From: an uncultured Gammaproteobacteria bacterium
Lineage (GTDB): Bacteria; Patescibacteriota; Microgenomatia; Levybacterales; GWA1-39-11
DNA: 64,000 nucleotides
Reading direction: 5' to 3'
Assembly: GCA_964425075.1 (NCBI GenBank)
Contig: CAYRKM010000001.1
Location: forward strand, 601,827 to 665,826
Shown here: positions 1,383 to 53,872 of the stretch, piece by piece
Numbering within the stretch: position 1 is the stretch's first letter
How the letters are laid out: each line of letters opens with the position of its first letter
The notes under the pieces: generated by a model
What the model was told of the DNA's origin: nothing
Database searches by the model: none
The model's input: only the letters and a program-made list of their open reading frames with translations
Translations under genes and position numbers: made by a program

Positions 1383-2870
1383 CTACTTATTTAATTCCTC
1401 CAAACGTGATAGCAAATACTCTCTTGTATTTCTTGAAAGATCTTCATCAACTTCTTCAAAGAGTTTTTGTAAAATCTCTCCAATTTTTTTTCCTGGTGGA
1501 AGTTTTAATTCTCTCATTATGTCATTTCCGTCAATTGCCAAGTCATTAATTGAAAAAGGTGGATTGAGTTCTTTCTCAATCTTTTCTTTAAATTGTTTGA
1601 GTCGCCAGCTCTCAGCAGTTTTGGTTCCGCTACCAAGTCTATCGCCAATTCGAAGGTCTATCATATCAGTTACATTCTCAAGCTCTACGCGTCTTATAAA
1701 GCGTCTTACTGCACTATCTGTAATATGCTCATCAACCGTGAACATGTGCCATCTTATGAGAGTGTATAATTTTTCTTTCTGTTTTTTAGAAAGTCTTAGA
1801 CGGTCTGCAATAATTTGCGAAAGCTTTGCTCCTTCAACTTCATGGTTATAGAAGATTACATACCCCTCGTTATCAGTAGAGGCAATATACGGTTTACCAA
1901 CATCATGAATTAGGGCAGCAAATTTAACTAATGGGTCCTCTGAGGGACAATATTTTAAAGACAGTAGATTATGAGTAAACACATCGCTTGTGTGATGCCT
2001 GCCAGGACGCACCTGAGAAACTCCTTTTCCTTTCGAGAGCTCCGGAAGGATTATATCAAGAAGTCCAACTTCATCAAGCAAAAGCATTCCATCATATGCA
2101 TTTGGAAGGCTTAGAATTCTAAATAGTTCGTCGCGTATTCTCTCGTTTGATACGTGGGAAATGAGCGACGCATCATTTTTGATTGCAGATAATGTTTTCT
2201 CTTCAATCGTAAAGCCAAGTTGGGTTGTAAAGCGAATTGCTCTTAAGAGCCTAAGAGCATCTTCCTTAAAACGTTCATCGGGATTGCCAACTGCCCGAAG
2301 TATTTTATTTTGAAGGTCTTTTTGTCCATTTACCAAATCAACGACTTCAGCGTTGTTATCTTTATCCAGTTTTATTGCAAGAGCATTTACGGTGAAGTCT
2401 CGTCTTTTGACATCCTCCTCAAGGGTAGTTCCCCATTCAACTTTTCCAGGGTGTCTAAAGTCAGTGTATCCATTCTCTGTTCTAAAAGTTGTAATTTCTG
2501 CATATTCTTTTCCGGATTCATTTGGAGTGTTGTACTTAACCCCCACAGTACCAAATGAATTATCATCACTCGCTAATTCATTTGTAGTGTTGTACTTAAC
2601 TCCCACAGTACCAAATGAATTATCATCACTCGCTAATTCATTCGGAGTATTGTACTTAACTCCCACAGTACCAAATGAATTATCGTAGAAAGAGTCAGGG
2701 AAAACTTGTTGAATTTGCTCAGGAGTGGCGTTAGTTGTCATGTCCCAATCAGTAACTTCATGAGAGAGCAAGAGGTTTCGTACGCACCCACCCACAAGAT
2801 ACACTTCATATCCTGAGTCAGTTAATTTTCTATAAATTCTTACTACCTTTTCAGGTATATTTTTTTGCAT
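1383..2870 (-). CDS. cca: CCA tRNA nucleotidyltransferase / polyA polymerase family with HD domain
   Basis: N-terminal LVGGCVRNLLL head motif, RRDFTVNA, C-terminal HD (HDVGKP); contains 3x in-frame 20-aa repeat insertion. Confidence 0.8.
   Translation of the reverse strand: MQKNIPEKVVRIYRKLTDSGYEVYLVGGCVRNLLLSHEVTDWDMTTNATPEQIQQVFPDSFYDNSFGTVGVKYNTPNELASDDNSFGTVGVKYNTTNELASDDNSFGTVGVKYNTPNESGKEYAEITTFRTENGYTDFRHPGKVEWGTTLEEDVKRRDFTVNALAIKLDKDNNAEVVDLVNGQKDLQNKILRAVGNPDERFKEDALRLLRAIRFTTQLGFTIEEKTLSAIKNDASLISHVSNERIRDELFRILSLPNAYDGMLLLDEVGLLDIILPELSKGKGVSQVRPGRHHTSDVFTHNLLSLKYCPSEDPLVKFAALIHDVGKPYIASTDNEGYVIFYNHEVEGAKLSQIIADRLRLSKKQKEKLYTLIRWHMFTVDEHITDSAVRRFIRRVELENVTDMIDLRIGDRLGSGTKTAESWRLKQFKEKIEKELNPPFSINDLAIDGNDIMRELKLPPGKKIGEILQKLFEEVDEDLSRNTREYLLSRLEELNK
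2514..2686. repeat. 60-bp tandem direct repeat (~2.9 copies) inside cca coding region, in frame
   Basis: Units at 2521-2580, 2581-2640 and partial 2641-2685 nearly identical; encodes DNSFGTVGVKYNTPNELASD x3. Confidence 0.9.
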
Positions 2871-14744: not shown

Positions 14745-16550
14745 ATGAAATCATTAAAAGCAGTAGCACAACTAGAACGCTTGGTATGGGCAGATGTATT
14801 AAGAGTAGTAGCAATTTATTTGGTACTTGTAGTTCATGCTTCCACAATGCCCTCATCAGCCTTTCCATTAAGTAATTCTTGGCCATACATAATTTCCTTT
14901 TCAATTGCAAAAATATGCGTGCCACTTTTTGTGATGTTAAGTGGCGCACTTCTTTTGGAAAAAAAGGAAACTTATAAAATGTTTTTCAAAAAAAGAATTT
15001 TAAAAGTGCTAACCCCTTGGATTGTTTGGACAGCGATTTATATGGGAATTAATTACTACACTAGAGATTTTCAACCACAAACTTTTTCTGAATGGAAATA
15101 TTATTTTACGCTGACTTTCTTTACTGAATTGTGGTTCCTACCTCTTATTTTTTCCATTTATTTATTAACTCCTATTATAAGACTTACCATTCCGTTATTA
15201 AAAAAAACTGACAAGATTTACATCATAATTTTGTGGTTTGTGTGGGTGTCGATTTTACCTTTCTTCAATTCAAGTCCCGCTTTTCCAAAACCATTCAACT
15301 CAGGACTTCTTTCATTGGCCGTATATTTTTCCGGGTACTTTCTTTTGGGCCATTTTTTAACAAAAATTAAGTATCCCAAGAATACTTTATGGTTCTCAAG
15401 TGTACTAATTATATTAGGCATACTAATTAATTTTGTTTCACTCTTTTTAGTTAATGAAAACGAATTAGTTCAATACCAAAGTTCTATTTTTGACTATATA
15501 GCACCTGATGAGTGGGGTTCAAACTCAATTGTTATTTCAAAATATGGAGCCAGAATAACCGTCGCATCAACTGAACAAAGCATAAGAGGATTAAGACACG
15601 GTGAGTATCGCCCAGACTTAGTCATATGTGATGATGTGGAAGATTTGAATAGTGTTAAAACACGAGAAGGTAGAGATAAAACATTTCAATGGTTAGTAGG
15701 AGAAGTTTTGCCAATTGGAGATCAGGGGACAAAGATTGTCATTGTAGGAAACCTACTACATGAAGATAGTCTCTTAATGAGATTGAAACAAGGAATCGAA
15801 AACCAAAAGTTAAATGGTAAGTTTTTTGCTTATCCACTCTTAGGCAAGGATAATGAAATTGCATGGAAGGATAAATTTCCTTCTCAAATCGATGTTGAGA
15901 AATTGCGCTCAAGTATAGGAACTGATTCAGCATGGTATAGAGAGTACCTTCTTCGAATCATCTCTGATGCAGAACGACTAGTCCATCCTGAGTGGATTGC
16001 CTATTACGATAAATCGCCTTCTGAAAGAGCTAATGGATTTAGATTTATTGCAACAGGTGTTGATCTTGCTATATCGCAAAAGGACTCAGCCGATTTCACA
16101 GCAATGGTGTCTGCAAAAATATTCGGACAGAAAGATGATCTAAGAGTTTATATCTTACCTTTCCCAATTAACAAAAGACTTAGTTTTCCAGAAACTTTTG
16201 AACAAGCAAAGAATCTTTCTGAAAATTTAGGAAATGGTCTTTACACAATGCTCTATATTGAAGATGTTGGGTATCAACAATCTTTAATCCAACACTTACA
16301 GGGGAATAATATTCCTGCAGTTGGAGTAAAGGTGTCAGGACAAGACAAAAGAGCAAGGCTTGCTTTAATAACCCATCTTATAAAACAAGGTAAAATACTT
16401 TTCCCGAAAAAAGGAGCAGAAGAATTAATACAACAGCTTACAGGTTTTAGCATTGAGAAGCATGACGATTTGGCAGATGCATTTTCCCTTCTAATTCTCA
16501 AGATTCAGGAGATGGATAATAAGCCTACATTCGATTACAGTTTTATCTAG
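14745..16550 (+). pseudogene. Chimeric ORF: acyltransferase-3 family membrane protein N-terminus (aa 1-~246) fused in frame to C-terminal ~355 aa of a phage terminase large subunit (lacks ATPase Walker A)
   Basis: N-terminus has Acyl_transf_3 pattern (LRVVAIYLVLVVHA, VPLFVMLSGALLL); from ~15483 the protein is ~85% identical by eye to residues ~132-490 of TerL at 29787..31313. Confidence 0.6.
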
Positions 16551-17386: not shown

Positions 17387-17456
17387 ACCTCAAGCTATCC
17401 TTATAAGATTCTCCTACTAGACTTCACAAAACACCTGCGGTACCTTGTGTCCTGAG

Positions 17457-18797
17457 ATGGATAACAGTAACGTATTAGCAAGAGCACCTATAGTTTCATT
17501 ACCTACAACTGAATACTGTCTTTATGCCAGAAAATCGACAGAAGATGACGAAAGACAAGCTATGTCAATCGATTCTCAAATTAAGGAGATGAATGATATG
17601 GCTATACGAGACGGTCTGTTTATCAAAGAAATCCGCCAAGAGAAACATTCGGCTAAAATGTCTGGACAAAGGCCAGTATTTGCAAAATTAATTGAAGATA
17701 TTCGAATTGGAATGTTTACAGGCATTTTGACATGGGCGCCAGATAGATTAAGTAGAAACGCAGGCGACTTAGGGATGTTGGTAGATCTTATGGATCAGGG
17801 AAGCTTACATCACATAAAAACCTTTTCTCAAAGTTTTTCTAATAATCCGAATGAGAAATTTTTACTTATGATCCTATGTTCTCAGGCGAAATTAGAAAAT
17901 GATCAAAAAGGAATAAATGTTAAAAGAGGAATTCGTGCAAAATGTTCAATGGGCTGGCGTCCAGGGATGCCGCCCATCGGTTATTACAATAGAGCTTTTA
18001 ATGGAGTGAAAGATATAATTGTAGATCCTGATAGAGGCCCAATAATCAGAGAAATGTTTGATCGAGTAGCAAAAAATGGAGATAGTGGTAAGACTTTAAA
18101 GAAGTGGCTAGACACTTGCTTAACCACTAGAGCTGGAAAGAAAGTGACACTAAGCCAGATTTATATGATGCTTAAAAATCCTTTTTACTACGGGGAATTT
18201 GAATATCCTATAAACAGCGGCAATAGATATAAAGGAGCTCATCCACCTTTAATATCTAAGGAAATATTTGATGAGGTACAAAATCAACTAACTGCACCCA
18301 AGAGAGGCTGGGGATTTAAAACATTTGCCTTTAAAGATTTATTTAAATGTGGGAATTGTGGGTCAAGTGTAATTGGAGAAGAAAGGTGGAGAAAGAGAAA
18401 AGCAAGACCCCCAGTTCATCACGTCTATTATCATTGTACGCGGCAGAAAAATTGGGATTGTAAAGAACCGTATCTAACGGAGGAAAAATTAATAAAAGAA
18501 TTACTACGATATATCAATTTTAACGTTATTGCCCATCCACAAACTATAAATATTACTCCGGAGCTAAAAAGATATATGAATGAATACGAAAAAGCTAGAG
18601 AAATAACCCTCCTCCAGCAAGATATTGATCCAGACCACATCCAGTTTGGAATCTATGAATATTCTCAATATGCACTTAAGAACGGCTCAATTGAGGAGAA
18701 AAGAGAAGTAATAACTTCAATAAAAACACAGCTGTATATTCACAATCAGTTTATTAGTTCATTATCTAAAGTAAATGATGCACTAGTATCTAGTTGA
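17457..18797 (+). CDS. Large serine recombinase (resolvase catalytic domain + recombinase domain + zinc ribbon)
   Basis: YARKSTEDDERQ nucleophile-serine motif, recombinase domain, CGNCGS...YYHCTRQ zinc ribbon; ~80% identical by eye to paralog at 47374. Confidence 0.85.
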   Translation: MDNSNVLARAPIVSLPTTEYCLYARKSTEDDERQAMSIDSQIKEMNDMAIRDGLFIKEIRQEKHSAKMSGQRPVFAKLIEDIRIGMFTGILTWAPDRLSRNAGDLGMLVDLMDQGSLHHIKTFSQSFSNNPNEKFLLMILCSQAKLENDQKGINVKRGIRAKCSMGWRPGMPPIGYYNRAFNGVKDIIVDPDRGPIIREMFDRVAKNGDSGKTLKKWLDTCLTTRAGKKVTLSQIYMMLKNPFYYGEFEYPINSGNRYKGAHPPLISKEIFDEVQNQLTAPKRGWGFKTFAFKDLFKCGNCGSSVIGEERWRKRKARPPVHHVYYHCTRQKNWDCKEPYLTEEKLIKELLRYINFNVIAHPQTINITPELKRYMNEYEKAREITLLQQDIDPDHIQFGIYEYSQYALKNGSIEEKREVITSIKTQLYIHNQFISSLSKVNDALVSS

Positions 18798-18832: not shown

Positions 18833-21505
18833 ATGCCACAACTATTCAAATCAATATATTTCCCTGATTATAATTCTGACAACAAAGAATCAAAATCATT
18901 TACGTTGGCATTTTCAGATAAGGATCAAGACATTTATGAACTATTAAGGACATCATCGAGCTTAGAGGTAAGAAGTTTATTATCAGTATTTTCATTTTCG
19001 GAATTAATTGATAAAGCTAATCAAGAAAGTCTACCTTTAAATACCTACTGTTTATGGAAAATCAGAAAAAACTTACAAAAGATTACCAGTCAAAATAAAA
19101 CTAACATCCAAACTAACTTATTTCCGCTAGATCCAGTACAGGTTACATTTGAAGGAGGAAAAAACTTACCCCTTCAATCTTGGTATCCCTACCTTGAAGG
19201 ATATTCTCCAGATTTTGTCGAGCACATTATAAAGAATTATTTAACACAGAACACAAGAACAGTTTATGATCCTTTTTCTGGATCTGGAACTACCCCTCTT
19301 GTAGCCTCATCTTTGAAGTATGATTCTTACTATTCAGAAATAAATCCCTTATTGCAATTTTTATCACAAACAAAATTCAGAGCTAAAAACATTAAAGATA
19401 AAAAAAAGACTATATCTAAGCTCACGATAATAAATAACACTCTTAAAAGTAAGATTCTAGCTTCTGATGAAGATATAGATCTTCGAGAAAACTATATTAG
19501 AACCTTTGGAAAGAGTAAGTTTTTCGATGATAAAGTTTTCTCTAACGTTTTAAGGACAAAGACGTATCTTAGGAGACTCGCTAAGCTAGATAGCTTGACA
19601 GCGGATTTAGTATGTACGGCAATCCTAGGAAGTTTAATAAAAGTATCTCTTTTAAAAAGGCAAGGTGATCTAAGGTATAAAACTAAAGATGAATTATCTA
19701 AAACAAAGACAGCTGAATATTTTGAAACTATACAGGCAAATCTGCAAAACATAATAAATGACATTTCGAATCTAAAGAAAGCTCCAGAGCCTATCTTCCT
19801 TACAGATGATGCAAGAAAAATAAAAGATTTAGACAAAATTGGTATAGACGCAGTAATAACTAGCCCCCCCTATCTGAACGGTACTAATTACTTTAGGAAT
19901 ACAAAGTTAGAGTTATGGTTTTTGGGATATTTAAAATCATTAAGTGATTTGACTGACTTTAGGCAACAGGCAGTAACTGCGGGTATTAATGACGTCTCTT
20001 TAAAAATTGAAAAGCAAATAGAAAATGAACTTCTTAAGGAGCTTTTGAAAGAAATTAATAAATCTGCATACGATCGAAGAATTCCTAAAATGATTCATGA
20101 TTATTTTGCAGATATGCAAACTATCTTTGAAGGATTAAAGAAACATTTAAATGATAATGCAGTTTTGGCTATCGATTTGGGAGATTCAATTTACAGTAAT
20201 GTTCATGTTAGAACTGACGAAATCCTGATTTCAATATTAAAACAATTAGGATATGAATTTGAGAGAAGCATTGTTTTGCGAAGACGGATATCCAAGAATG
20301 GCGAAGAACTGAGACAGGTGTTATTAATATTTAAATATAGACAATCCAAGCAGCCCAAAATAATCCCTATGAATAAATCTAATAAATGGGATCAGGATTG
20401 GAGTAAGTTTAAAAACGATTTGCCTCATCAGCAAATTCCATTATCAAAGAGAAATTGGGGAGATCCTATACATTCTTTGTGTTCATATCAAGGTAAGTTA
20501 AAGCCTTCTATTGCTCATATGTTAACCTCGATTTTTGTACCACCTAATGGCTCAGTATTAGATATTTTTGCAGGAGTTGGAACTATTCCACTAGAAGCCT
20601 CTCTCCAAGGAAAAAAATCATTTGGATTTGATATAAGTGCTCCTGCTGTTGCGATATCAAGAGCAAAATTATCTAAGATTTCAAGCGATAAAACTTATGA
20701 AATAATAAATGATCTTGAACAATATATTTTAAGCGGTAGAACTGACAAGTCTGAGCTTTCAAAAGCCCAAACATTTGGATTCAATAAGAAATTAATCGAT
20801 TACTTTCATCCAAATACATTAAAAGAGATTTTGTTAGCACGGGAATACTTCGGGAAGATAGGATATGATACACCAGAAAAGTCTATAGTTCTTGCCTCTA
20901 TTCTTCACATTCTTCATGGAAATAGACCGTATGCATTGAGTAGAAGATCTCACGGAATTACACCCTTTGCGCCTACAGGCGAATTTGAATATAAAAACCT
21001 TATAACTAAACTCAAAGAAAAAGTTTCCAGATCATTAAAATATGTTGATAGAAGTAATTTTGTAGAAGGAAATATGTATTTTCAAAATGCTCTAAATGAG
21101 TGGCCTAAAGAGATAAAGAATTTAGATGCAATCATCACAAGTCCGCCTTTCTTTGATAGTACGAGATTTTATCTTTCTAATTGGATGAGGATATGGTTTG
21201 CTGGCTGGGATGAAGAAAACTTCAAAACAGACTCTGTCGATTTCATAGAAGAATTACAAAAGAAAGATTTTTCCGTATATGACTCAATTTTTAAACAAGC
21301 CCGTGAGCGATTGAATAAAAATGGCGTATTTGTGATGCACTTAGGGAAAAGTAACAAGTGTAATATGGCAAAAATATTATCAGAAAAATCCAAGCCGTGG
21401 TTCAATACTTACGATATCTTTGAGGAAAGTGTAAGGACGGGAGAATCACATGGAGTCACAGATAAAGGAACAGTAGTCGACCATCAATATTTGGTATTAA
21501 ATTAG
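18833..21505 (+). CDS. Tandem two-domain DNA methyltransferase (two alpha-class N6A/N4C MTase domains)
   Basis: Motif I VYDPFSGSGTT + motif IV ITSPPYLNGTNYF in first half; VLDIFAGVGTIP + ITSPPFFDSTRFY in second half. Confidence 0.8.
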   Translation: MPQLFKSIYFPDYNSDNKESKSFTLAFSDKDQDIYELLRTSSSLEVRSLLSVFSFSELIDKANQESLPLNTYCLWKIRKNLQKITSQNKTNIQTNLFPLDPVQVTFEGGKNLPLQSWYPYLEGYSPDFVEHIIKNYLTQNTRTVYDPFSGSGTTPLVASSLKYDSYYSEINPLLQFLSQTKFRAKNIKDKKKTISKLTIINNTLKSKILASDEDIDLRENYIRTFGKSKFFDDKVFSNVLRTKTYLRRLAKLDSLTADLVCTAILGSLIKVSLLKRQGDLRYKTKDELSKTKTAEYFETIQANLQNIINDISNLKKAPEPIFLTDDARKIKDLDKIGIDAVITSPPYLNGTNYFRNTKLELWFLGYLKSLSDLTDFRQQAVTAGINDVSLKIEKQIENELLKELLKEINKSAYDRRIPKMIHDYFADMQTIFEGLKKHLNDNAVLAIDLGDSIYSNVHVRTDEILISILKQLGYEFERSIVLRRRISKNGEELRQVLLIFKYRQSKQPKIIPMNKSNKWDQDWSKFKNDLPHQQIPLSKRNWGDPIHSLCSYQGKLKPSIAHMLTSIFVPPNGSVLDIFAGVGTIPLEASLQGKKSFGFDISAPAVAISRAKLSKISSDKTYEIINDLEQYILSGRTDKSELSKAQTFGFNKKLIDYFHPNTLKEILLAREYFGKIGYDTPEKSIVLASILHILHGNRPYALSRRSHGITPFAPTGEFEYKNLITKLKEKVSRSLKYVDRSNFVEGNMYFQNALNEWPKEIKNLDAIITSPPFFDSTRFYLSNWMRIWFAGWDEENFKTDSVDFIEELQKKDFSVYDSIFKQARERLNKNGVFVMHLGKSNKCNMAKILSEKSKPWFNTYDIFEESVRTGESHGVTDKGTVVDHQYLVLN

Positions 21506-22548
21506 TATCCTAAAAGTTTTTTATTTGCGTCAGAAAGTTGTTCGACTAAATTATAGTCTTCAAGTAATTTCTTAATATCGTCAATTCTCCTACTTAAGTC
21601 CGTTGCAGATCTCACTGTCAGTAATCTTGTTACACACGCATTTACATCAATACGAGGATTAAGAATAGGCTCTCTTTTTGATATTAGCGATAAATCAGCT
21701 CCTGTAATCTGAGCTAAGCGTATAAGTTCCTCATTGGTATAAAAATCACTAGGCCACTTGTCGTTTTTCGCTGCATTTGCTTTTGTTGAGAGTAATGCTG
21801 CATTTTGTGAACTGAGAGGATAAAGCCACCTAGATGGCAAAATGTGATCGATTGCCCACGATCCTCTATCAGATTTGTCAATAATGATACCGGTTTTAAA
21901 ACATTTAGAATCAAATCGTTCAAACAATTCGTCTAAATCGACGGTTTGATTCTCACCCTCAAGTAGTAATTCAGCGGCTCTACGTTTGCTGGAAGATTCA
22001 TGTAGTTGTTGTTGCGTTCTTAGTGGGTTTAAGGTTGTGTTAATAACGGCTTTACAGCTTCTGCATTCAAGTTGTTTCTCCAGAGGTCCCCATCCAACGT
22101 GACGATCGAACGCCGACCCGGGAAGAACTCTACCACAGGTTCCGCACTGTTTCCAATAATTAGCTTTATCTGCTACTGCAATTCTAAAAAACGCTCTCCA
22201 AAATCGTTCTATATGCAAATCTCCTGGTAGGGTGTATTCTTCCTTCCAGTTTGTAAAAGGTGTTTCCTTGCCTGACGCATCAGTTAATGGTAATCCTGAC
22301 TGTCTTGAGTGAATATATCCACAAAAATCACATTTCCATTCTTCATTATCGTAAGCTTCTGTTTCCGATAGCAATCGTTCACCAATAGAATGCTTGTTAA
22401 GCATGTTACAACGTAGGCAATTAAAAATTACCCAGACATCATTGGGTTTTGCCCCAGCAATCCTAGGAATTTCCGTCCTGTTTGTAGTTGATCTTCTTGG
22501 CATATTGTTGCTTGTATTATATCCTAAGTGCCTTCTAAAGAAAAACAC
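21502..22548 (-). CDS. HNH-family endonuclease with zinc-ribbon (candidate restriction endonuclease partner of tandem MTase); start uncertain
   Basis: Multiple CxxC pairs (CLRC, CDFCGY, CGTCG, CRSC) and AIDHILP...N HNH-like motif; convergent and 4-bp overlapping with MTase. Confidence 0.55.
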   Translation of the reverse strand: MFFFRRHLGYNTSNNMPRRSTTNRTEIPRIAGAKPNDVWVIFNCLRCNMLNKHSIGERLLSETEAYDNEEWKCDFCGYIHSRQSGLPLTDASGKETPFTNWKEEYTLPGDLHIERFWRAFFRIAVADKANYWKQCGTCGRVLPGSAFDRHVGWGPLEKQLECRSCKAVINTTLNPLRTQQQLHESSSKRRAAELLLEGENQTVDLDELFERFDSKCFKTGIIIDKSDRGSWAIDHILPSRWLYPLSSQNAALLSTKANAAKNDKWPSDFYTNEELIRLAQITGADLSLISKREPILNPRIDVNACVTRLLTVRSATDLSRRIDDIKKLLEDYNLVEQLSDANKKLLGY

Positions 22549-22692
22549 CTATGATTGGAATTCGAACCGCAACCTCGGTATTCAGATGTTTAAAGGTGTG
22601 AATAGTGAGGGTACGGTGAGATACTAACACGTGCTTGCTGAGAGGCTCGGTCTAGAACCTTCTTATCCTTATAACGATTGTCTCACATCAAG

Positions 22693-22730
22693 GCTAAATG
22701 AGACAAACGAGACACTATAAAAAAGGGTGT
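22693..22730 (+). repeat. Copy A of conserved hairpin motif (aGGCTAAATGAGACAAAyGAGACACyATAAAA)
   Basis: Near-identical 38-nt stretch also at 53786-53822; contains GTCTCA...TGAGAC stem. Confidence 0.6.
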
Positions 22731-22788
22731 CTTATTTTCTATAATATCCCATAACAACACAACAGATAAATGATATATTTTGATATAG

Positions 22789-23382
22789 TTGTGTTTCTGC
22801 CCTTTAATTATGGCAAGGGCAAGAAAATATACAACATTTAATAGGGCAAGGCTTATGTTATTTACTCATTCATATGCCTGTTATGCTATTACTTGCCATG
22901 TAAAAACGAAATATAAAATTAATGATAACCTAACGCCACGAGAATTACGAAAGAGATATATCAATAAGAGAATTATTCCAGAAATTTCTAGGCTTTCTTA
23001 TTCGCTACATTTTGACTACGAAGTTCTATGGAGAGCAATACTATTGAATAAAAAGCCGCTACTGAGTAAGCAGGTAAGAAGCAGTGATGGAATTAGGTTA
23101 TATCTTGCCATCGAGGACGAACTGATTGCTCTTGCCGAATCAAAAAGGCACAGATCACGAGACTTTTTCGACCCTGATTATGAAAATGAATATGCGCTAC
23201 TCAGTATTGCAATAGAACGAGCAGCAGGAAGTCTTCTTAATGACGTAGAGGATGACTTTGTCTTTGATCAGCAATGTGAAGAAATGAAGAAGATATGTTT
23301 CAAGTGGTATTACAAAATTGCGTATCGATATAAACTGCCGACAACAAGAATTGTCCCGTTTGTTTTGAGACTTATCAGCTGA
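22789..23382 (+). CDS. Hypothetical protein (start uncertain)
   Basis: ORF only; convergent with helicase gene, 4-bp gap. Confidence 0.35.
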   Translation: MCFCPLIMARARKYTTFNRARLMLFTHSYACYAITCHVKTKYKINDNLTPRELRKRYINKRIIPEISRLSYSLHFDYEVLWRAILLNKKPLLSKQVRSSDGIRLYLAIEDELIALAESKRHRSRDFFDPDYENEYALLSIAIERAAGSLLNDVEDDFVFDQQCEEMKKICFKWYYKIAYRYKLPTTRIVPFVLRLIS

Positions 23383-29372: not shown

Positions 29373-29790
29373 TCCGACGATTCAGAAGCGAATAGATAAA
29401 AATCAGGAACTACTTATTGAGCAGCTTAAGAAAACGCCAATTGTTCAAGTTGCGTGTGAGAAAGTCGGGGTAGGCCGAGCTACTTATTACCGATGGAGAA
29501 AAGAAAATGAAGTATTTGCCGAACAAGCAGATGAAGCAATAGCTGAAGGAGCGTTACTTGTGAATGACATGGCCGAGTCCCAACTCATGGCAGCGATTCG
29601 GGATAAAAATCTCACAGCCATCATTTTCTGGTTGAAGCACCATCACCCTCACTACGCAACGAAAGTTGAAGTGACGGCTAGACTAAAAGCTGATAACGAA
29701 GTTTTAACGCCTGAACAAGAAGCACTAGTAACGAAAGCATTAAAACTTGCCTCATTAATTCCTGAAACAAAGGAGGAAGTAAAACAATGA
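29362..29790 (+). CDS. Terminase small subunit-like HTH protein
   Basis: VACEKVGVGRATYYRWRKE helix-turn-helix; immediately upstream of and overlapping TerL. Confidence 0.5.
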   Translation: MENNPTIQKRIDKNQELLIEQLKKTPIVQVACEKVGVGRATYYRWRKENEVFAEQADEAIAEGALLVNDMAESQLMAAIRDKNLTAIIFWLKHHHPHYATKVEVTARLKADNEVLTPEQEALVTKALKLASLIPETKEEVKQ

Positions 29791-31313
29791 TTGTTGGAGC
29801 AATTACAGATAACGTGCTCGAAGGAATAAAAAGAGAAAGATCCGTGAGACGAGAAGTCGCAAGAAGTAGCCATCTTTGGTTTTTCTCAATATACCTTGGA
29901 CACTATATCAAGTATCCATTTGCGCCGTTTCATTCAGAAATGTTTGCGCTGACGGAAAATGCTGACATACGATTATCAGTTCTTGTAGCATTTCGTGGTT
30001 CTGGAAAATCAACGCTTATAACTCTGTCTTATCCAATCTGGGCAATTGTGGGAGCACAGCAAAAGAAGTTTGTGCTCATCCTCTCTCAAACCCAAACGCA
30101 AGCAAGACTTCATATGGCAAACATAAAACGAGAGCTTGAGAGTAATGACTTATTAAAAGCAGATATTGGACCATTTGAAGAAGTAAGTGACGAATGGGGA
30201 TCAAATTCAATTGTCATCTCAAAATATGGCGCACGTATTACTGTTGCCTCAACGGAGCAGAGTATTCGAGGATTAAGACATGGGGAGCATCGACCTGATC
30301 TGGTTATTTGTGATGATGTGGAGGATTTAAATAGTGTAAAAACCCGGGAAGGACGAGACAAAACATTCCAATGGCTGGTTGGTGAAGTGCTCCCAATCGG
30401 AGATCAAGAAACAAAGATTGTAATTGTTGGAAATCTTTTGCACGAAGACAGTCTCTTAATGCGACTGAAAAAAGGAATTGAAAATGAAAAACTTAATGGA
30501 AAATATTTTGCCTATCCACTCCTAGATATAAATAATACTATTGCATGGCAGGCTAAATTTAAAACTTTAGAGGACGTTGAGAGATTACGGGCAAGTATTG
30601 GAACAGACTCTGCGTGGTATCGAGAGTATTTATTACGAATAATTTCTGATGCGGACCGCTTAGTCCATCCTGAATGGATTCAGTATTATGACCGGATACC
30701 ATCTGAAGATAGTGGTGACTTCCATTACACTGCAACTGGTATTGATCTGGCGATATCTCAACGGGAGTCTGCAGACTATACTGCAATGGTTTCAGCTAAA
30801 GTATTTGGCTACTATGAGAAATTAAAAATATACATCCTGCCCCATCCCGTAAATGAACGTTTAAGTTTTCCTGAAACCTACGAGAAAGCAAAACAATTGT
30901 CCAAAGATTTAGGGGACGGTCACTATACTAAATTATTTATCGAAGATGTAGGATATCAAGCTGCTCTTATCCAAGACTTATCAAATCACAATGTTCCAGC
31001 AGAAGGGGTAAAGGTATCAGGACAAGATAAAAGATCAAGACTTGCTTTGATAACGCATCTTATTAAGCAAGGAAAAGTTCTCTTCCCTAAGGGAAACCAA
31101 GCTGAAGAACTTATTATGCAACTTACCGGGTTCGGTATTGAGAAACATGACGATTTAGCTGATGCGTTTTCGCTTCTACTTCTAAAGATCCTGGAAGAGG
31201 ATCAAGGAGAGCCAAGTGTCTATATCATCGATATGGGAAGCAGTCTTTATGATAGATATTCACCACTCGGGAATCTGAACGAAGACCGTTTTACACTTGA
31301 TACAAAATTTTAG
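29787..31313 (+). CDS. Phage terminase large subunit (ATPase + nuclease)
   Basis: Walker A AFRGSGKSTLI, Walker B LVICDDVED, C-terminal RNaseH-like nuclease with DDLADAF. Confidence 0.85.
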   Translation: MIVGAITDNVLEGIKRERSVRREVARSSHLWFFSIYLGHYIKYPFAPFHSEMFALTENADIRLSVLVAFRGSGKSTLITLSYPIWAIVGAQQKKFVLILSQTQTQARLHMANIKRELESNDLLKADIGPFEEVSDEWGSNSIVISKYGARITVASTEQSIRGLRHGEHRPDLVICDDVEDLNSVKTREGRDKTFQWLVGEVLPIGDQETKIVIVGNLLHEDSLLMRLKKGIENEKLNGKYFAYPLLDINNTIAWQAKFKTLEDVERLRASIGTDSAWYREYLLRIISDADRLVHPEWIQYYDRIPSEDSGDFHYTATGIDLAISQRESADYTAMVSAKVFGYYEKLKIYILPHPVNERLSFPETYEKAKQLSKDLGDGHYTKLFIEDVGYQAALIQDLSNHNVPAEGVKVSGQDKRSRLALITHLIKQGKVLFPKGNQAEELIMQLTGFGIEKHDDLADAFSLLLLKILEEDQGEPSVYIIDMGSSLYDRYSPLGNLNEDRFTLDTKF

Positions 31314-47304: not shown

Positions 47305-47373
47305 TTTTGATTAATCCTCATAGTATTTTGCGTCTGGACTTCAAAGAACGGTTGCGGTACCTTGTCCCCTGAT

Positions 47374-48702
47374 ATGAACTACCAGAATGAATTATTACAG
47401 CAACCAACTCAAACACAACCGCTGGTTATTGAATATTGTCTCTACGCACGAAAATCCACAGAAGATGACGAGCGCCAAGCGATGTCAATCGATTCTCAAA
47501 TTAAAGAGATGACTGACATGGCGATCAAAGAAGGACTCTTTATCAAAGAAATCAGACGAGAAAGTCATTCTGCTAAAATGTCAGGACAACGACCAGTCTT
47601 CAATCAACTTCTCAATGACTTAAGAAATGGTCTATTCACCGGAATTCTCACATGGGCTCCGGATCGATTATCAAGAAATGCAGGAGATTTAGGAATGCTG
47701 GTTGATATGATGGATGGCGGAAAACTCATTCACATTAAAACATTTACGCAGGCATTCTCAAACAGTCCAAGCGATAAATTTTTACTCATGATTCTCTGCT
47801 CTCAAGCAAAACTCGAGAATGACCAAAAAGGGATAAATGTTAAACGAGGTATCAGAGCTAAATGCAATATGGGATGGAGACCAGGGATGCCACCAATCGG
47901 TTATTTCAACAGAGCAATGGCTGGGATAAAAGATATTATTCCTGACCCTGAAAGAGCACCATTTGTGACAGAAATGTTTGAAAGAGTTGCGAGGAACGGA
48001 GATAGTGGACGAACACTCAAAAAATGGCTGGATACATGCCTTACAACAAGGGCGGGAAAGAGAGTCACGCTAAGTCAGATTTATCTCATGCTCAAGAATC
48101 CTTTCTATTACGGGGAATTTGAATATCCAATTGGAAGCGGTAATTGGTATAAGGGATCACATAAGCCATTAATTACCAAAGAGCTATTTGATCAAGTCCA
48201 GAAACAACTTACAGTGCCATTTAAAAAAGCAAAATGGGGAAGCAAAATGTTTACCTTCAAAGAACTCTTTAAATGTGCAAGCTGCGGATCATTAGTAATT
48301 GGTGAGGACAGATATAGAAAGAGAAAATATGGAGAGCCGAGGTATCATATCTACTATCATTGTACTAGACAAAAGAAGTACGGCTGTCCTGAGCCATACT
48401 TAACAGAAGAAAAGCTTGTAAAGCAAATTCTTCGATATCTTAATTTTATGTACATGGCACACCCGCAAATATTTACCTTCAAGGAATTTATAAAACAAAG
48501 CATGGAAGCATATAAGAAAATGAGAGACGAAATTCTCTGGGCGCAAGATATAAACCCTGAGAATAAGCCTGTACATTTTATGGATTATGCAAATTATATT
48601 TTCAGAAATGGAACACTGCAAGAAAAACGAGAAATAACGAATATCCTCAATCGACAACTCTATATACACAACGAAACGGTCACTTCAGTACCCCTTATCT
48701 AG
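47374..48702 (+). CDS. Large serine recombinase (paralog of 17457..18797)
   Basis: Same motif set; conserved upstream TGCGGTACCTTGT..CCTGA.ATG shared with paralog. Confidence 0.85.
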   Translation: MNYQNELLQQPTQTQPLVIEYCLYARKSTEDDERQAMSIDSQIKEMTDMAIKEGLFIKEIRRESHSAKMSGQRPVFNQLLNDLRNGLFTGILTWAPDRLSRNAGDLGMLVDMMDGGKLIHIKTFTQAFSNSPSDKFLLMILCSQAKLENDQKGINVKRGIRAKCNMGWRPGMPPIGYFNRAMAGIKDIIPDPERAPFVTEMFERVARNGDSGRTLKKWLDTCLTTRAGKRVTLSQIYLMLKNPFYYGEFEYPIGSGNWYKGSHKPLITKELFDQVQKQLTVPFKKAKWGSKMFTFKELFKCASCGSLVIGEDRYRKRKYGEPRYHIYYHCTRQKKYGCPEPYLTEEKLVKQILRYLNFMYMAHPQIFTFKEFIKQSMEAYKKMRDEILWAQDINPENKPVHFMDYANYIFRNGTLQEKREITNILNRQLYIHNETVTSVPLI

Positions 48703-49267: not shown

Positions 49268-49466
49268 GTTTATAAAAGGATTATACCAAAAATTTTCTGT
49301 TTGAATCCTAACTCTGCGGTTAAGTAGGACATATATGAACCTTAGCCTTAATATGGGGATTTTGAGGGTGTTTTGCCGGTCCGAATGTTTCCCGTCTTGA
49401 AGGGGATTTTAGCAAGCCCCTTCAAGCTAAATAGGGAATACGGTCACTCTAGGGTGCCCGTCTCAG

Positions 49467-49537
49467 CTGGGAGTCAGGGATTTGAACCCCAATAAACAGA
49501 TCCAGAATCTGTTGTCCTACCATTAGACGAACTCCCA
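49467..49537 (-). tRNA. tRNA-Gln (anticodon CUG), U1-A72, discriminator G, CCA not encoded
   Basis: Manual cloverleaf: acceptor TGGGAGT/ACTCCCA, D stem GTCT/GGAC, anticodon stem ACAGA/TCTGT with loop TTCTGGA, T loop TTCAAAT. Confidence 0.7.
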
Positions 49538-53591: not shown

Positions 53592-53785
53592 GAGTTTGGT
53601 GTGGGTTTGGGTTTCGTCGTAGCATTAAATCTGTGACCCGTAGGAGAGTCGAACTCCTCTTACTAGGATGAGAACCTAATTTCATCGCTACCTTGATGCA
53701 AGCATCAAGGGTAACCAATAGAATGTGACCCAAACGGGTTCGGAACCATATAGGCCTTATAGCGGTTCTTTGGACTGTCTCACCT

Positions 53786-53822
53786 TGAGGCTAAATGAGA
53801 CAAATGAGACACCATAAAAGAG
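53786..53822 (+). repeat. Copy B of conserved hairpin motif (GAGGCTAAATGAGACAAATGAGACACCATAAAA)
   Basis: Matches 22693-22730 with 2-3 substitutions; preceded by weaker ~50-nt similarity. Confidence 0.6.
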
Positions 53823-53872
53823 AATCGTATAGTCTTAAAATGATATAGTTTGATATATTTAAGGCAGTGCTG

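What the first reader, a model, noticed from the sequence alone, without database searches (positions are those of the whole stretch)
22549..22788. Conserved ~40-nt hairpin motif repeated at two intergenic loci 31 kb apart
tcaAGGCTAAATGAGACAAAcGAGACACtATAAAA (22693-22730) and ttgAGGCTAAATGAGACAAAtGAGACACcATAAAA (53786-53822) are nearly identical, including the loop of a GTCTCA/TGAGAC hairpin. They are preceded by ~50 nt of weaker similarity (GGTCTAGAACC..CCTTATAACGATTGTCTCAC versus GGTTCGGAACC..CCTTATAGCGGTT..TGTCTCAC). Both sit in intergenic DNA next to tRNA-like debris. Candidates are a small regulatory RNA or binding site, or attL/attR-type boundary repeats of a larger integrated element.
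Basis: seen in the sequence. Interest (0 to 1): 0.6.

Follow-up and report, generated by a model that had tools for sequence, protein, structure and literature searches.

The report
Conserved end-module of tRNA-targeting mobile elements
The repeated "hairpin motif" is real. It belongs to a family of at least 160 conserved non-coding modules in Microgenomates (candidate-phyla-radiation) bacteria, and these most likely mark one end of serine-recombinase mobile elements inserted at the 3' ends of tRNA genes, so the two copies are ends of two different insertions rather than the two borders of one.

Summary
Two minus-strand copies, 22637-22787 and 53725-53857, share a 25-nt core that is not expected by chance.

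The motif is the centre of a composite module I call E:
- an upstream TATATCAAAnTATATCA motif;
- four TGAGACA/TGTCTCA heptamers around a TATAGT-like box;
- the GTCTCA/TGAGAC inverted repeat;
- a fixed 36-37-nt copy of a tRNA 3' end (T-arm-like GGTTCnAGACC plus an acceptor-like end).

E occurs in at least 160 intergenic loci of Patescibacteria/Microgenomates and is not in Rfam.

Comparative loci show a recurrent layout: tRNA | T module | large serine recombinase (LSR) on the opposite strand | cargo | E | host flank. E and the target tRNA share only their last 6-8 nt. The same cargo+E unit lies at different tRNA-Ser genes in different genomes.

In the window:
- tRNA-Gln (49466-49537) plus T starts a 27-kb phage-like element that ends at E copy 1.
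- Copy 1 abuts the T end of a second, decayed LSR element.
- Copy 2 ends a third insertion, next to a pseudo-tRNA.

Evidence for RNA structure is weak. The 75-nt 5' block is probably a promoter/operator, but this is only inferred. Confidence is about 0.6. The main rival is a host tRNA-like sRNA gene used as an integration site.

The parts
22771..22787 (-). Copy 1: upstream direct-repeat motif TATATCAAAATATATCA. It abuts the divergent ORF at 22789-23382.
   Evidence: The same motif (TATATCAAACTAYATCA) lies 15-45 nt upstream of the core in most of 145 family members.
22714..22733 (-). Copy 1: heptamer 1 (AAGACAC), a T-tract, the -10-like TATAGT, and the start of heptamer 2 (TGTCTCG).
   Evidence: Read. 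The family consensus is TTGAGACAC-CCTTTTTATAG/C-TGTCTCATTT. The promoter scan lists TATAGT ending at 22714.
22680..22704 (-).
22637..22673 (-). Copy 1: 37-nt tRNA-3'-end mimic, TATAAGGATAAGAAGGTTCTAGACCGAGCCTCTCAGC. This is the inferred recombination half-site, with the crossover near ...CAGC.
   Evidence: The length is fixed at 36-37 nt in 106 of 112 members. About 15 of the last 24 nt match the 3' end of the window's tRNA-Gln by my own by-eye alignment, with sequences.
22549..22636 (-). T' module after copy 1. It is the inferred left end of a second, decayed LSR element (HNH-like ORF 21502-22548 named from motifs by eye with no Pfam hit, methylase 18833-21505, LSR-A 17445-18797), and it includes degenerate T-arm debris.
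   Evidence: Alignment. It is homologous to sequence after tRNA-Gln (L144), after E (L041, L095) and next to an LSR stop codon (L046).
53841..53857 (-). Copy 2: upstream motif TATATCAAACTATATCA.
53777..53811 (-). Copy 2: heptamer 2 plus the hairpin GTCTCA-TTTAGCCTCAAGG-TGAGAC.
53725..53761 (-). Copy 2: tRNA-3'-end mimic, TATAAGGCCTATATGGTTCCGAACCCGTTTGGGTCAC.
   Evidence: The near-identical homologue L047 continues directly into AGATT after GGGTCAC.
53633..53724 (-). An 18-nt linker plus a pseudo-tRNA (53633-53706) that ends in a second GGGTCAC. This GGGTCAC-delimited unit after E (53633-53724) is absent from L047.
49466..49537 (-). tRNA-Gln(CUG): the inferred target (attL side) of the 27-kb element whose other end is copy 1.
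   Evidence: 58.6 bits. Orientation and order follow.
49330..49465 (-). T module directly after tRNA-Gln (GACGGGCACCC..GTGACCGTATTC..GGGGCTTGCTAAA..ACATTCGGACC).
   Evidence: The same module follows E in L117 and L068, and follows tRNA-Gln in IMG/VR locus L173 just before an LSR stop codon.
47362..48702 (+). Large serine recombinase LSR-B. It converges on tRNA-Gln|T and is the last gene of the phage-like element (terminase at 29787-31313).
   Evidence: Pfam Resolvase+Recombinase+Zn_ribbon_recom. PHROG integrase and terminase hits.
17445..18797 (+). Paralogous recombinase LSR-A (70-82% DNA identity to LSR-B) of the decayed neighbouring element.
   Evidence: (D2, D3, D5, D6).

Best explanation
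The motif is the core of a conserved non-coding end-module, which I call E, of a family of integrative mobile elements in Microgenomates. These elements include prophages and defence or cargo islands.

They appear to be moved by a large serine recombinase (LSR) and to insert at the extreme 3' end of tRNA genes (Gln, Lys and Ser types were seen). Each element has two conserved ends:
- T, about 110 nt, which after integration lies between the target tRNA and the 3' end of the convergent LSR gene.
- E, at the far end, which points outward.

The last 36-37 nt of E imitate a tRNA T-arm plus acceptor 3' strand. This stretch probably forms the element-side half of the recombination site. Only the final 6-8 nt (for example GGCTCAC or CTCAGC) are shared with the target tRNA, and that is where strand exchange is inferred. 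After integration, E is therefore followed by whatever originally followed the tRNA: a terminator, the next tRNA or a host gene. In tandem or circular forms, E is followed by T.

It is conserved as primary sequence: four TGAGACA/TGTCTCA heptamers, a TATAGT/TATACT box and a TATATCA direct repeat. I infer that it is an outward-facing promoter/operator that restores transcription of host DNA cut off from the tRNA promoter. When E|T is joined, it would instead read antisense toward the recombinase gene.

What is shown: the architecture, the junction sequences, the LSR association, and the occurrence of the same cargo+E at different tRNA genes. What is inferred: that the LSR is the enzyme, the exact crossover point, and the promoter/operator role.

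In this window, copy 1 is the right end of a 27-kb phage-like element inserted at tRNA-Gln, and it abuts the T end of an older element. Copy 2 is the right end of another insertion that extends beyond 54 kb.
For: (1) Family and specificity. A genome scan gave 49 loci, of which 46 are true homologues. All are in Patescibacteria/Microgenomates MAGs or in MAGs with doubtful labels. All elements are intergenic.

(2) The sequence after E is a tRNA trailer or a T module.
- L073 and L081 after E match the last 7 nt of tRNA-Lys plus its 155-nt trailer in L056 at 86-89%.
- L095, L097 and L117 after E match the trailer of tRNA-Gln, including this window's own.

(3) L056 holds a complete example: tRNA-Lys|T, then 9.4 kb with two LSR genes, then E followed by an intrinsic terminator. 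The core GGCTCAC(A) is shared by the tRNA and E.

(4) LSR association.
- LSR homologues occur in 11 loci. All are upstream of E and on the opposite strand.
- LSR domains are the most frequent Pfam families among 140 upstream ORFs.
- No tyrosine integrase appears among the top 25 families.

(5) A tRNA|T module lies next to the LSR stop codon in several loci:
- L017/L106 (tRNA-Ser);
- L023 (tRNA-Ser);
- L046 (Gln-like);
- IMG/VR provirus L173 (tRNA-Gln).

(6) Mobility relative to the host backbone.
- The same AEP-TOTE helicase + 190-aa gene + E unit lies immediately before tRNA-Ser(UGA) in L039/L050.
- In L106/L017 that unit lies before the DnaG-side flank of tRNA-Ser(GGA).
- In L169, E occupies the exact position that tRNA-Ser(UGA) has in L039, 35-42 nt before the same 191-aa gene.

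(7) E subtypes track target type...GCTCAGC with Gln...GGCTCAC with Lys...GCTCCGC with Ser.

(8) The window fits the layout. On the minus strand the order is tRNA-Gln, T, membrane ORF, LSR-B, terminase-bearing element, E copy 1, T', HNH-like ORF (motifs by eye, no Pfam hit), methylase, LSR-A.

(9) Conservation is at the DNA-sequence level rather than as RNA helices. The first downstream feature is co-oriented with E in 74 of 101 loci.
Against: - E patterns give 0 hits in 2.9 million IMG/VR viral contigs. No free or circular element carrying an E|T junction was seen, and the nine IMG/VR proviruses with related LSRs show no E in the fetched parts.
- Many loci show no LSR within the available flank. 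Only 11 loci have one, while 35 loci have at least 5 kb of upstream flank. Some stretches between tRNA-Gln and E hold ordinary-looking genes, such as an Asp racemase-like ORF and a P-type ATPase, named by eye from the translations. Either those islands are decayed, or E is host DNA.
- Some copies are followed directly by an intrinsic terminator (L018, L019, L036, L056, L085). This would also fit a free-standing small-RNA gene.
- Substitutions in the hairpin include 32 wobble-type changes and 5 double compensatory changes, which hints at RNA-level selection.
- Serine recombinases normally need only about 50 bp and no flanking sites, so the strong conservation of the 75-nt 5' block is unexplained by recombination.
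- No third E closing the older element was found in the window.
- L106 implies an additional deletion or rearrangement that the simple model does not predict.
- All comparison sequences are MAG or metagenome contigs.
Confidence: 0.6

Rival explanations
1. E is a host-encoded, free-standing small RNA gene family with its own promoter, a tRNA-like 3' end and sometimes its own terminator. Because that 3' end resembles a tRNA, mobile elements use E as an integration site just as they use tRNA genes. On this view E|T means an occupied E gene, and LSRs upstream of E simply sit in neighbouring tRNAs.
For: - E is followed by an intrinsic terminator in several loci.
- E gives 0 hits in IMG/VR.
- tRNA-Gln lies 1.2-5 kb upstream on the same strand in 13 loci, with ordinary genes between in some.
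- The sequence is very highly conserved across orders.
- Wobble-type and a few compensatory changes occur in the hairpin.
- LSR-A lies 3.9 kb downstream of copy 1 after a T module, as an 'occupied E' would predict.
Against: - The same cargo+E unit lies at different tRNA-Ser positions of an otherwise syntenic backbone.
- In L056, E closes a 9.4-kb LSR-bearing segment that starts at tRNA-Lys|T.
- The last 6-8 nt of E always equal those of the tRNA type it is associated with. This is expected for a recombination product but not for an independent gene.
- All 12 LSR matches (11 loci) in the fetched loci are upstream of E; none is downstream.
- Distribution is patchy: 46 true hits among 185,579 species genomes, although the search pattern was strict.
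- There is no covariation-supported structure beyond one imperfect hairpin, and no Rfam match.
Confidence: 0.22
2. This is the first reader's version: the two copies are the attL and attR direct repeats that flank one 31-kb integrated element spanning 22.7-53.8 kb.
For: The two copies are in direct orientation, are 80-86% identical over about 110 nt, and enclose phage-like genes and a recombinase.
Against: - The shared part is the same arm (upstream motif, heptamers, hairpin, tRNA mimic) in both copies, and the sequences after the core differ. An attL/attR pair would share only the core.
- Identity is too low for a duplicated core.
- The interval includes a Lon-like protease, a CoaD/DUF359 fusion, a glycosylase and tRNA-Gln.
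- The family-wide partner of E is tRNA|T, which is present at 49.3-49.5 kb.
Confidence: 0.03
3. E is a cis-acting 5' leader (a riboswitch, attenuator or antitermination signal) that controls the gene downstream.
For: - The downstream feature is co-oriented in 73% of loci.
- Alternative pairings among the four heptamers are possible.
- Terminator-like hairpins follow some copies.
Against: - Downstream genes are functionally unrelated, and 27 of 101 are convergent.
- There is no covariation.
- There is no Rfam hit at E-values up to 10.
- The 3' part is a tRNA-end copy fused to tRNA trailers.
Confidence: 0.04

Closest known systems
Attachment sites of large serine recombinase (LSR) prophages and islands (phiC31, Bxb1, TP901-1, A118; SCCmec/Ccr at the 3' end of rlmH). 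This comparison rests on my own knowledge.
   Same: The recombinase gene sits next to one end of the element. The identity between partner sites is very short. Sequences roughly 20-25 bp either side of the crossover carry partly symmetric motifs. An example is GGTTCCAGACC ... GGCTC|AC ... GGTTGCGCGCGACC in the Lys-type E|T junction. Tandem arrays form at one target, as with SCC elements.
   Different: The target here is the 3' end of tRNA genes, and the element-side half-site copies a tRNA T-arm/acceptor at a fixed 36-37 nt. Both ends carry much longer conserved non-coding modules than any LSR site is known to need: E is about 115-150 nt and T about 110 nt. Recombination by the LSR was not tested.
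tRNA-gene-targeting genomic islands and phages with tyrosine integrases (P4-like and others). In these, attP carries a copy of the tRNA 3' part and integration leaves a tRNA fragment at the far end. This rests on my own knowledge.
   Same: A tRNA-3'-end-like segment sits at the distal boundary, followed by the native tRNA flank. The tRNA is intact at the proximal boundary. Remnants occur in tandem (L034, L067, L070, L107).
   Different: No tyrosine integrase was found among 140 upstream ORFs, and the recurrent recombinase is a serine one. The block shared with the tRNA is only 6-8 nt. The rest of the tRNA-like segment is a family-specific mimic, not a copy of the target.
tRNA-like small RNAs (the tmRNA tRNA-like domain, YrlA/Y-RNA-like RNAs). 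This rests on my own knowledge.
   Same: A T-loop-like GGUUCnAGACC and an acceptor-like 3' end lie behind a conserved 5' domain.
   Different: ARAGORN and Rfam find nothing. No 5' partner for an acceptor stem was found, and the stem positions do not covary.
Outward-facing promoters at the ends of insertion sequences and other mobile elements. This rests on my own knowledge.
   Same: The -10-like box has a constant outward orientation at the element end. Co-oriented host tRNAs or genes lie immediately downstream.
   Different: Promoter activity is only inferred here, and no clear -35 element is present at the standard spacing.

Membership tests
Large-serine-recombinase attachment site (element-side half / attR-type junction) | Physical linkage to an LSR gene within the same element | tested here: met
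   In the window, LSR-B and LSR-A flank the two T modules. In related loci, 11 have an LSR, always upstream of E on the opposite strand. LSR domains are the top family among 140 upstream ORFs.
Large-serine-recombinase attachment site (element-side half / attR-type junction) | The junction behaves as a recombination product: left partners (tRNA or E) and right partners (T, or native flank) occur in all combinations and share a short core | tested here: met
   All four junction types were seen: tRNA-Lys|T, E|T, E|terminator and E|tRNA. The common core is GGCTCAC(A).
Large-serine-recombinase attachment site (element-side half / attR-type junction) | A site of about 40-50 bp with imperfect dyad symmetry around a central dinucleotide | tested here: inconclusive
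   GGTT..GACC-type motifs lie 11-15 bp either side of the core in E|T junctions. This was judged by eye only. No statistical test was done and the central dinucleotide was not defined.
Large-serine-recombinase attachment site (element-side half / attR-type junction) | Recombination catalysed by the cognate LSR; excised circle and empty site detectable | not testable with these tools
   No read-level data are available. An exact-protein look-up for a neighbouring gene returned only 1-2 kb contigs.
tRNA gene (Rfam RF00005 / ARAGORN) | A cloverleaf that scores above threshold | tested here: not met
   There is no tRNA call on either E copy. The neighbour at 53633-53706 scores 16.7 bits against a gathering score of 29, with acceptor mismatches.
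Any described structured RNA family (Rfam 15) | A covariance-model match | tested here: not met
   There is no hit at gathering score in the window. Only chance-level hits (E-values 1-10) appear on either locus with permissive filters.
Structured small RNA (generic) | Base pairs maintained by compensatory substitutions | tested here: inconclusive
   RNAalifold keeps only the 8-pair hairpin and finds no covariation, though the arms were fixed by the search pattern. In the set with free arms, 69 of 129 sequences pair fully, 39 carry a central C.U mismatch, and there are 5 double compensatory and 32 wobble changes. The flanking helix gives a mean run of 2.49 against 2.45 +/- 0.07 in controls. The 37-nt module shows no Watson-Crick covariation.
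Tyrosine-integrase tRNA-targeting island | A tyrosine recombinase (Phage_integrase) in the element | tested here: not met
   It is absent from the 25 most frequent Pfam families among 140 ORFs within 9 kb upstream of E. None of the window ORFs that were scanned had it.

The most novel reading that the evidence does not exclude
E is transcribed from its own promoter into a roughly 115-nt RNA whose 3' end imitates a tRNA 3' half. On this reading, the mobile element uses that RNA actively in one of three ways:
- as an antisense or read-through regulator of its recombinase once E and T are joined by excision;
- as a processing signal that lets downstream host tRNAs mature after the insertion;
- as a decoy for tRNA-directed host or phage nucleases.

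This would make it a new class of mobile-element-borne tRNA-mimic RNA that is widespread in candidate-phyla-radiation bacteria.
Probability: 0.15. Interest if true: 0.7.

Novelty: new variant of a known kind. Interest (0 to 1): 0.45.

Why it matters
If this is right, it defines the two ends (T and E) and the tRNA-3'-end target of a mobile-element family that is widespread in Microgenomates, a group whose mobile elements are barely charted.

Practical gains:
- It gives a sequence signature for delimiting prophages and defence islands in fragmented genomes assembled from metagenomes.
- It explains the tRNA fragments and pseudo-tRNAs scattered in these genomes.
- It points to serine recombinases with a natural, highly conserved target (tRNA 3' ends). 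Such enzymes could be useful as integration tools for organisms that currently have no genetics.

The unexplained, almost invariant 75-nt block next to the site is a concrete candidate for a regulatory element or small RNA, and it can be tested directly.

Tried and rejected
- **Rfam.** I searched at gathering score and at permissive thresholds and found nothing.
- **Single-sequence folds.** These give only modest z-scores of -2.2 and -2.8.
- **RNAalifold on 24 short forms.** Only the hairpin that the search pattern had fixed is kept.
- **Long-range helix CCUUUUUAUAG/UUAUAAGG.** RNAfold suggested it, but the G/C alternation in TATAG/TATAC is not compensated. I judged this by eye.
- **A helix enclosing TGAKACA.** It does no better than shuffled partners.
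- **T-stem or any other helix inside the 37-nt module.** No covariation was found.
- **Small ORF on the opposite strand (MRQ(T/M)RH...).** I translated this by eye. I rejected it because the T-tract length varies by single bases.
- **Split-tRNA 3' half, permuted tmRNA, T-box, IscB/TnpB guide RNA.** I considered each from memory. None fits: ARAGORN and Rfam find nothing, no associated protein recurs, and the T-stems are degenerate.
- **Constant protein neighbour.** There is none. The most frequent neighbours are a divergent 190-aa ORF in 12 loci, GIY-YIG ORFs in 11 and Zn-ribbon proteins in 11.
- **Tyrosine integrase.** Not found.
- **Literature.** Searches for the sequence itself and for candidate-phyla-radiation (CPR) prophage/tRNA/serine recombinase found no description. 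TOTE was clarified from PMC12458937.
- **Empty-site search.** An exact look-up of the glycosylase protein returned only 1-2 kb contigs.
- **A third E copy closing the older element.** None is present in the window.
Full report
**1. The observation**

Both copies exist and lie on the minus strand. The 25-mer GTGTCTCRTTTGTCTCATTTAGCCT occurs only at 22691-22715 and 53788-53812, and no match was seen in 100 shuffles. The repeat finder gives 50 nt at 86% identity. An alignment of the two loci read on the minus strand shows that the similarity is broader. It has three parts:
- an upstream 17-nt motif, TATATCAAA(A/C)TATATCA;
- a block with a T-tract, TATAG/TATGG and the tandem TGTCTCNTTT GTCTCATTTAGCC, which includes the GTCTCA/TGAGAC inverted repeat;
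- a TATAAGG...GGTTC..GA(A)CC... segment.

After that the two loci diverge. Rfam finds no family at either locus. The ARAGORN tRNA-Glu at 53633-53706 reaches only 16.7 bits in Rfam and has acceptor mismatches, so I treat it as a pseudo-tRNA.

**2. The motif belongs to a large, lineage-restricted family**

A pattern scan of one genome per species returned 49 loci.
- 46 are clear homologues. They come from Patescibacteria: Levyi-, Curtiss-, Davies-, Woese-, Roizman-, Gottesman- and Chisholmbacteria.
- Some MAGs are labelled Gammaproteobacteria or Pseudomonadales yet carry the same element.
- Three hits look like chance matches (L005, L008 and L028).

Two patterns gave no hit in IMG/VR. The window itself looks like a Microgenomates-type genome with about 36% GC and bacterial genes.

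The element is always intergenic, and its neighbours are diverse.

The family consensus, read on the element strand, is:
- [TATATCAAACTAYATCA], then 7-30 nt;
- [TTGAGACAC][CCTTTTTATAG/C][TGTCTCATTT][GTCTCATTTAGCC];
- 4-8 nt, then [TGAKACA];
- a variable insert of 2-60 nt;
- a 36-37-nt module of the form TATRRGRN7GGNNCNAGACCN5GCTCAGC.

I call the whole unit E.

**3. RNA or DNA?**

I looked for RNA structure in several ways.
- RNAalifold on 24 short forms retains only the hairpin whose arms the search pattern had fixed.
- In the metagenome set, where the arms were free, I examined 129 distinct sequences:
  - 69 pair fully.
  - 49 have one mismatch; 39 sequences in all carry an uncompensated central C.U (GTCTC[A/G] with TGATAC).
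  - There are 32 wobble-type changes.
  - Only 5 changes are double compensatory.
- A possible helix formed by the variable bases either side of TGAKACA is no better than when partners are dealt at random (2.49 against 2.45 +/- 0.07).
- Within the 37-nt module, the invariant positions are sequence positions (GG, C, AGACC, GCTCA). The would-be T-stem does not covary.

I conclude that conservation is mainly of primary sequence. A weak RNA-level signal in the hairpin cannot be excluded.

**4. The key turn: the 3' part of E is a tRNA 3' end, and what follows E is a tRNA flank**

The module has the layout of tRNA positions from about 39 to 74. It is a T-arm-like 5+7+5, then a 7-nt acceptor strand, then a discriminator.

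Three subtypes exist, and they end ...GCTCAGC, ...GGCTCAC and ...GCTCCGC.

In five loci a same-strand tRNA follows within 4-18 nt, and it shares its last 6-7 nt with E. The loci are L092 (Lys), L039/L050/L089 (Ser) and window copy 2 (pseudo-tRNA, GGGTCAC).

BLAST of the sequence after E against tRNAs plus their flanks gave these matches:
- L073 and L081 continue into the last 7 nt plus 155 nt of trailer of tRNA-Lys(UUU) of L056 (86-89%).
- L095, L097 and L117 continue into the sequence that follows tRNA-Gln, including this window's own tRNA-Gln.
- L017, L023 and L086 continue into flanks of tRNA-Ser genes.

**5. A second conserved module, T, and the recombinase**

The "trailer" is not a universal tRNA flank. 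It follows only some tRNA-Lys and tRNA-Gln genes. It is itself a conserved module of about 110 nt with these features..GACC(C)GTA.., a GCC...GGC hairpin, TTGCTAA and ATTCGRA. I call it T.

Homologues of the window's large serine recombinase occur in 11 of the fetched loci. Every one lies upstream of E on the opposite strand, with its start codon 0.1 to 10 kb from E.

Just beyond the stop codon of these recombinase genes lies T, preceded by a tRNA:
- tRNA-Ser(UGA) in L017/L106 and in L023;
- a tRNA-Gln-like end in L046;
- tRNA-Gln in the IMG/VR provirus L173.

Among 140 non-redundant ORFs within 9 kb upstream of E, the serine-recombinase domains are the most frequent Pfam families. No tyrosine integrase reaches the top 25.

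L056 shows the whole arrangement on one contig. It reads tRNA-Lys|T, then 9.4 kb with two recombinase genes, then E followed by an intrinsic terminator. GGCTCAC(A) is the only block shared by the tRNA and E.

All four junction combinations occur: tRNA|T, E|T, E|native flank and tRNA|native flank. This is what site-specific recombination between an element site (E|T) and a tRNA site predicts.

**6. E moves with its cargo**

In Curtissbacteria-like loci the host order is tRNA-Ser(GCU), tRNA-Ser(UGA), a 191-aa gene, tRNA-Arg, tRNA-Ser(CGA)..., tRNA-Ser(GGA), then a DnaG-like gene.

The unit made of an AEP-TOTE helicase, a 190-aa ORF and E (Pfam) sits in different places on this backbone.
- In L039/L050 it lies directly before tRNA-Ser(UGA), which is the position of tRNA-Ser(GCU).
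- In L106/L017 it is bounded on the left by tRNA-Ser(UGA)|T-LSR. On the right, E is joined to the flank of tRNA-Ser(GGA).
- In L169, E sits exactly where tRNA-Ser(UGA) sits in L039, 35-42 nt before the same gene.

This is hard to reconcile with E being a fixed host gene.

**7. Reading the window**

Along the minus strand the order is:
- E copy 2 (53857-53725);
- an 18-nt linker, then the pseudo-tRNA (53706-53633);
- the CoaD/DUF359 gene, a Lon-like protease and a Pyr_excise glycosylase;
- tRNA-Gln (49537-49466);
- T (49465-49330);
- a membrane ORF;
- LSR-B (47362-48702, opposite strand);
- phage-like genes, including the large terminase and a ParB-methyltransferase;
- a ResIII helicase;
- the divergent 197-aa ORF, which belongs to the 190-aa family;
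- E copy 1 (22787-22637);
- T' (22636-22549; homology);
- an HNH-like ORF (named from motifs by eye; no Pfam hit) and a methylase;
- LSR-A (17445-18797);
- a terminase fragment.

LSR-A and LSR-B and their upstream regions are 70-82% identical at the DNA level.

The simplest reading is two related elements integrated in tandem at tRNA-Gln. In this reading tRNA-Gln|T_B...E_B (copy 1) is followed directly by T_A...(a decayed element A). Copy 2 is then the right end of a third insertion that extends beyond 54 kb. Its host flank begins with a pseudo-tRNA. The close homologue L047 lacks the GGGTCAC-delimited unit after E (53633-53724), which is consistent with recombination at that core.

No E that would close element A is present in the window.

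**8. Mechanism proposed, and its limits**

Shown:
- the layout;
- the junction sequences;
- the recombinase association;
- the relocation of cargo+E.

Inferred:
- The serine recombinase catalyses exchange within the 6-8-nt core at the tRNA 3' end.
- The 36-37-nt tRNA mimic is the element-side half-site, and the start of T is the other half. GGTT..GACC-like motifs flank the core on both sides in E|T, but I did not test the symmetry statistically.

Three features are constant across the family:
- its outward orientation;
- the TATAGT/TATACT box;
- the four heptamers.

Downstream features are co-oriented with E in 74 of 101 loci, and in several loci they are tRNAs that the insertion separated from their upstream region. 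From these features I infer an outward promoter/operator. When E|T is joined, this promoter would read toward the 3' end of the recombinase gene. This last step is the weakest part of the account.

**9. Counter-evidence and the main rival**

- E is absent from IMG/VR, and no circular E|T-bearing element was seen.
- Many loci show no recombinase in the available flank.
- Some segments between tRNA-Gln and E carry ordinary genes.
- Some E copies are followed by terminators.

These points fit an alternative in which E is a host tRNA-like small-RNA gene that elements use as a target. I give that alternative about 0.2. The relocation evidence (section 6), the L056 arrangement and the match between E's terminal bases and the associated tRNA type favour the mobile-element reading at about 0.6. 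The attL/attR-pair reading and the leader or riboswitch reading are each unlikely (see the rivals).

**10. Comparison with known systems, and novelty**

Functionally this resembles serine-recombinase prophage or island boundaries and tRNA-targeting islands. It differs in three ways:
- it combines a serine recombinase with tRNA 3' ends as the target;
- the half-site is a fixed-length tRNA mimic;
- both ends carry long, almost invariant non-coding modules.

I found no description of it in Rfam or in the searchable literature. I rate it a new variant of a known kind and of moderate interest. Its interest would rise if the 5' block proves to be a functional RNA or a regulatory switch.

Noticed in passing
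window 49330-49465 (-), and loci L056, L073, L081, L085, L162, L117, L068, L103, L173: A conserved module of about 110 nt (T) follows some tRNA-Lys, tRNA-Gln and tRNA-Ser genes, or follows E. Its features are ..GACC(C)GTA.., a GCC..GGC hairpin, TTGCTAA and ATTCGRA. It may itself be structured, for example as a terminator, an insulator or an RNA. Its start contains a degenerate copy of the E module.
   Followed up: partly
window 53633-53706 (-): ARAGORN calls a tRNA-Glu(CUC) here, but Rfam gives only 16.7 bits and the acceptor stem is mismatched. An alternative fold with a UGC anticodon loop is also possible. It is probably a pseudo-tRNA created by recombination.
   Followed up: partly
window 22789-23382 (+), and 11 related loci (e.g. 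L017, L039, L042, L080, L115, L143): A roughly 190-aa ORF family with no Pfam hit is transcribed divergently from E, starting about 96 nt upstream of the core. In several loci it sits next to an AEP-TOTE primase-helicase (PF22548). It is a candidate DNA-binding partner for the heptamer array.
   Followed up: partly
L013, L040, L079, L090, L096, L109 and others (11 loci): Small GIY-YIG nuclease ORFs (80-100 aa) start 90-180 nt downstream of E on the same strand. This suggests free-standing homing-type nucleases nested at these junctions.
   Followed up: no
L065, about 400 nt beyond the stop codon of its serine recombinase: A tRNA 5' part (CCCCTGTAGCTCAATGGTAGAGCAGG...) appears to be interrupted by a structured insertion of about 200 nt. 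This may be a group I intron in a tRNA gene.
   Followed up: no
window 14745-16550 (+): One ORF combines an Acyl_transf_3 domain with the C-terminal nuclease domain of a large terminase. It is 79% identical in DNA to the intact terminase gene at 29787-31313. It is probably a fusion left by decay of the older element.
   Followed up: partly
window 2516-2695 (+): Three tandem 60-nt repeats (80-97% identity) lie inside overlapping ORFs.
   Followed up: no
L004, L013, L019, L024, L027, L031, L032, L038, L039, L041, L042, L045, L047: MAGs labelled Gammaproteobacteria or Pseudomonadales carry the Microgenomates-type element and Microgenomates-like neighbours. The taxonomic labels of these third-party assemblies look wrong, or the bins are contaminated.
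   Followed up: no
L143, L080, L086 compared with L039/L050: The block holding the 191-aa gene, tRNA-Arg(GCG) and tRNA-Ser(CGA) is inverted relative to E in some genomes. L106 lacks the 2.7 kb between tRNA-Ser(UGA) and tRNA-Ser(GGA). This suggests that recombination among the tRNA-Ser/E sites rearranges the host chromosome.
   Followed up: partly
L034, L067, L070, L107, L144; L104 directly after tRNA-Gln: Tandem extra copies of the 37-nt tRNA-end mimic occur without the 5' block of E. They may be scars of successive integrations.
   Followed up: no
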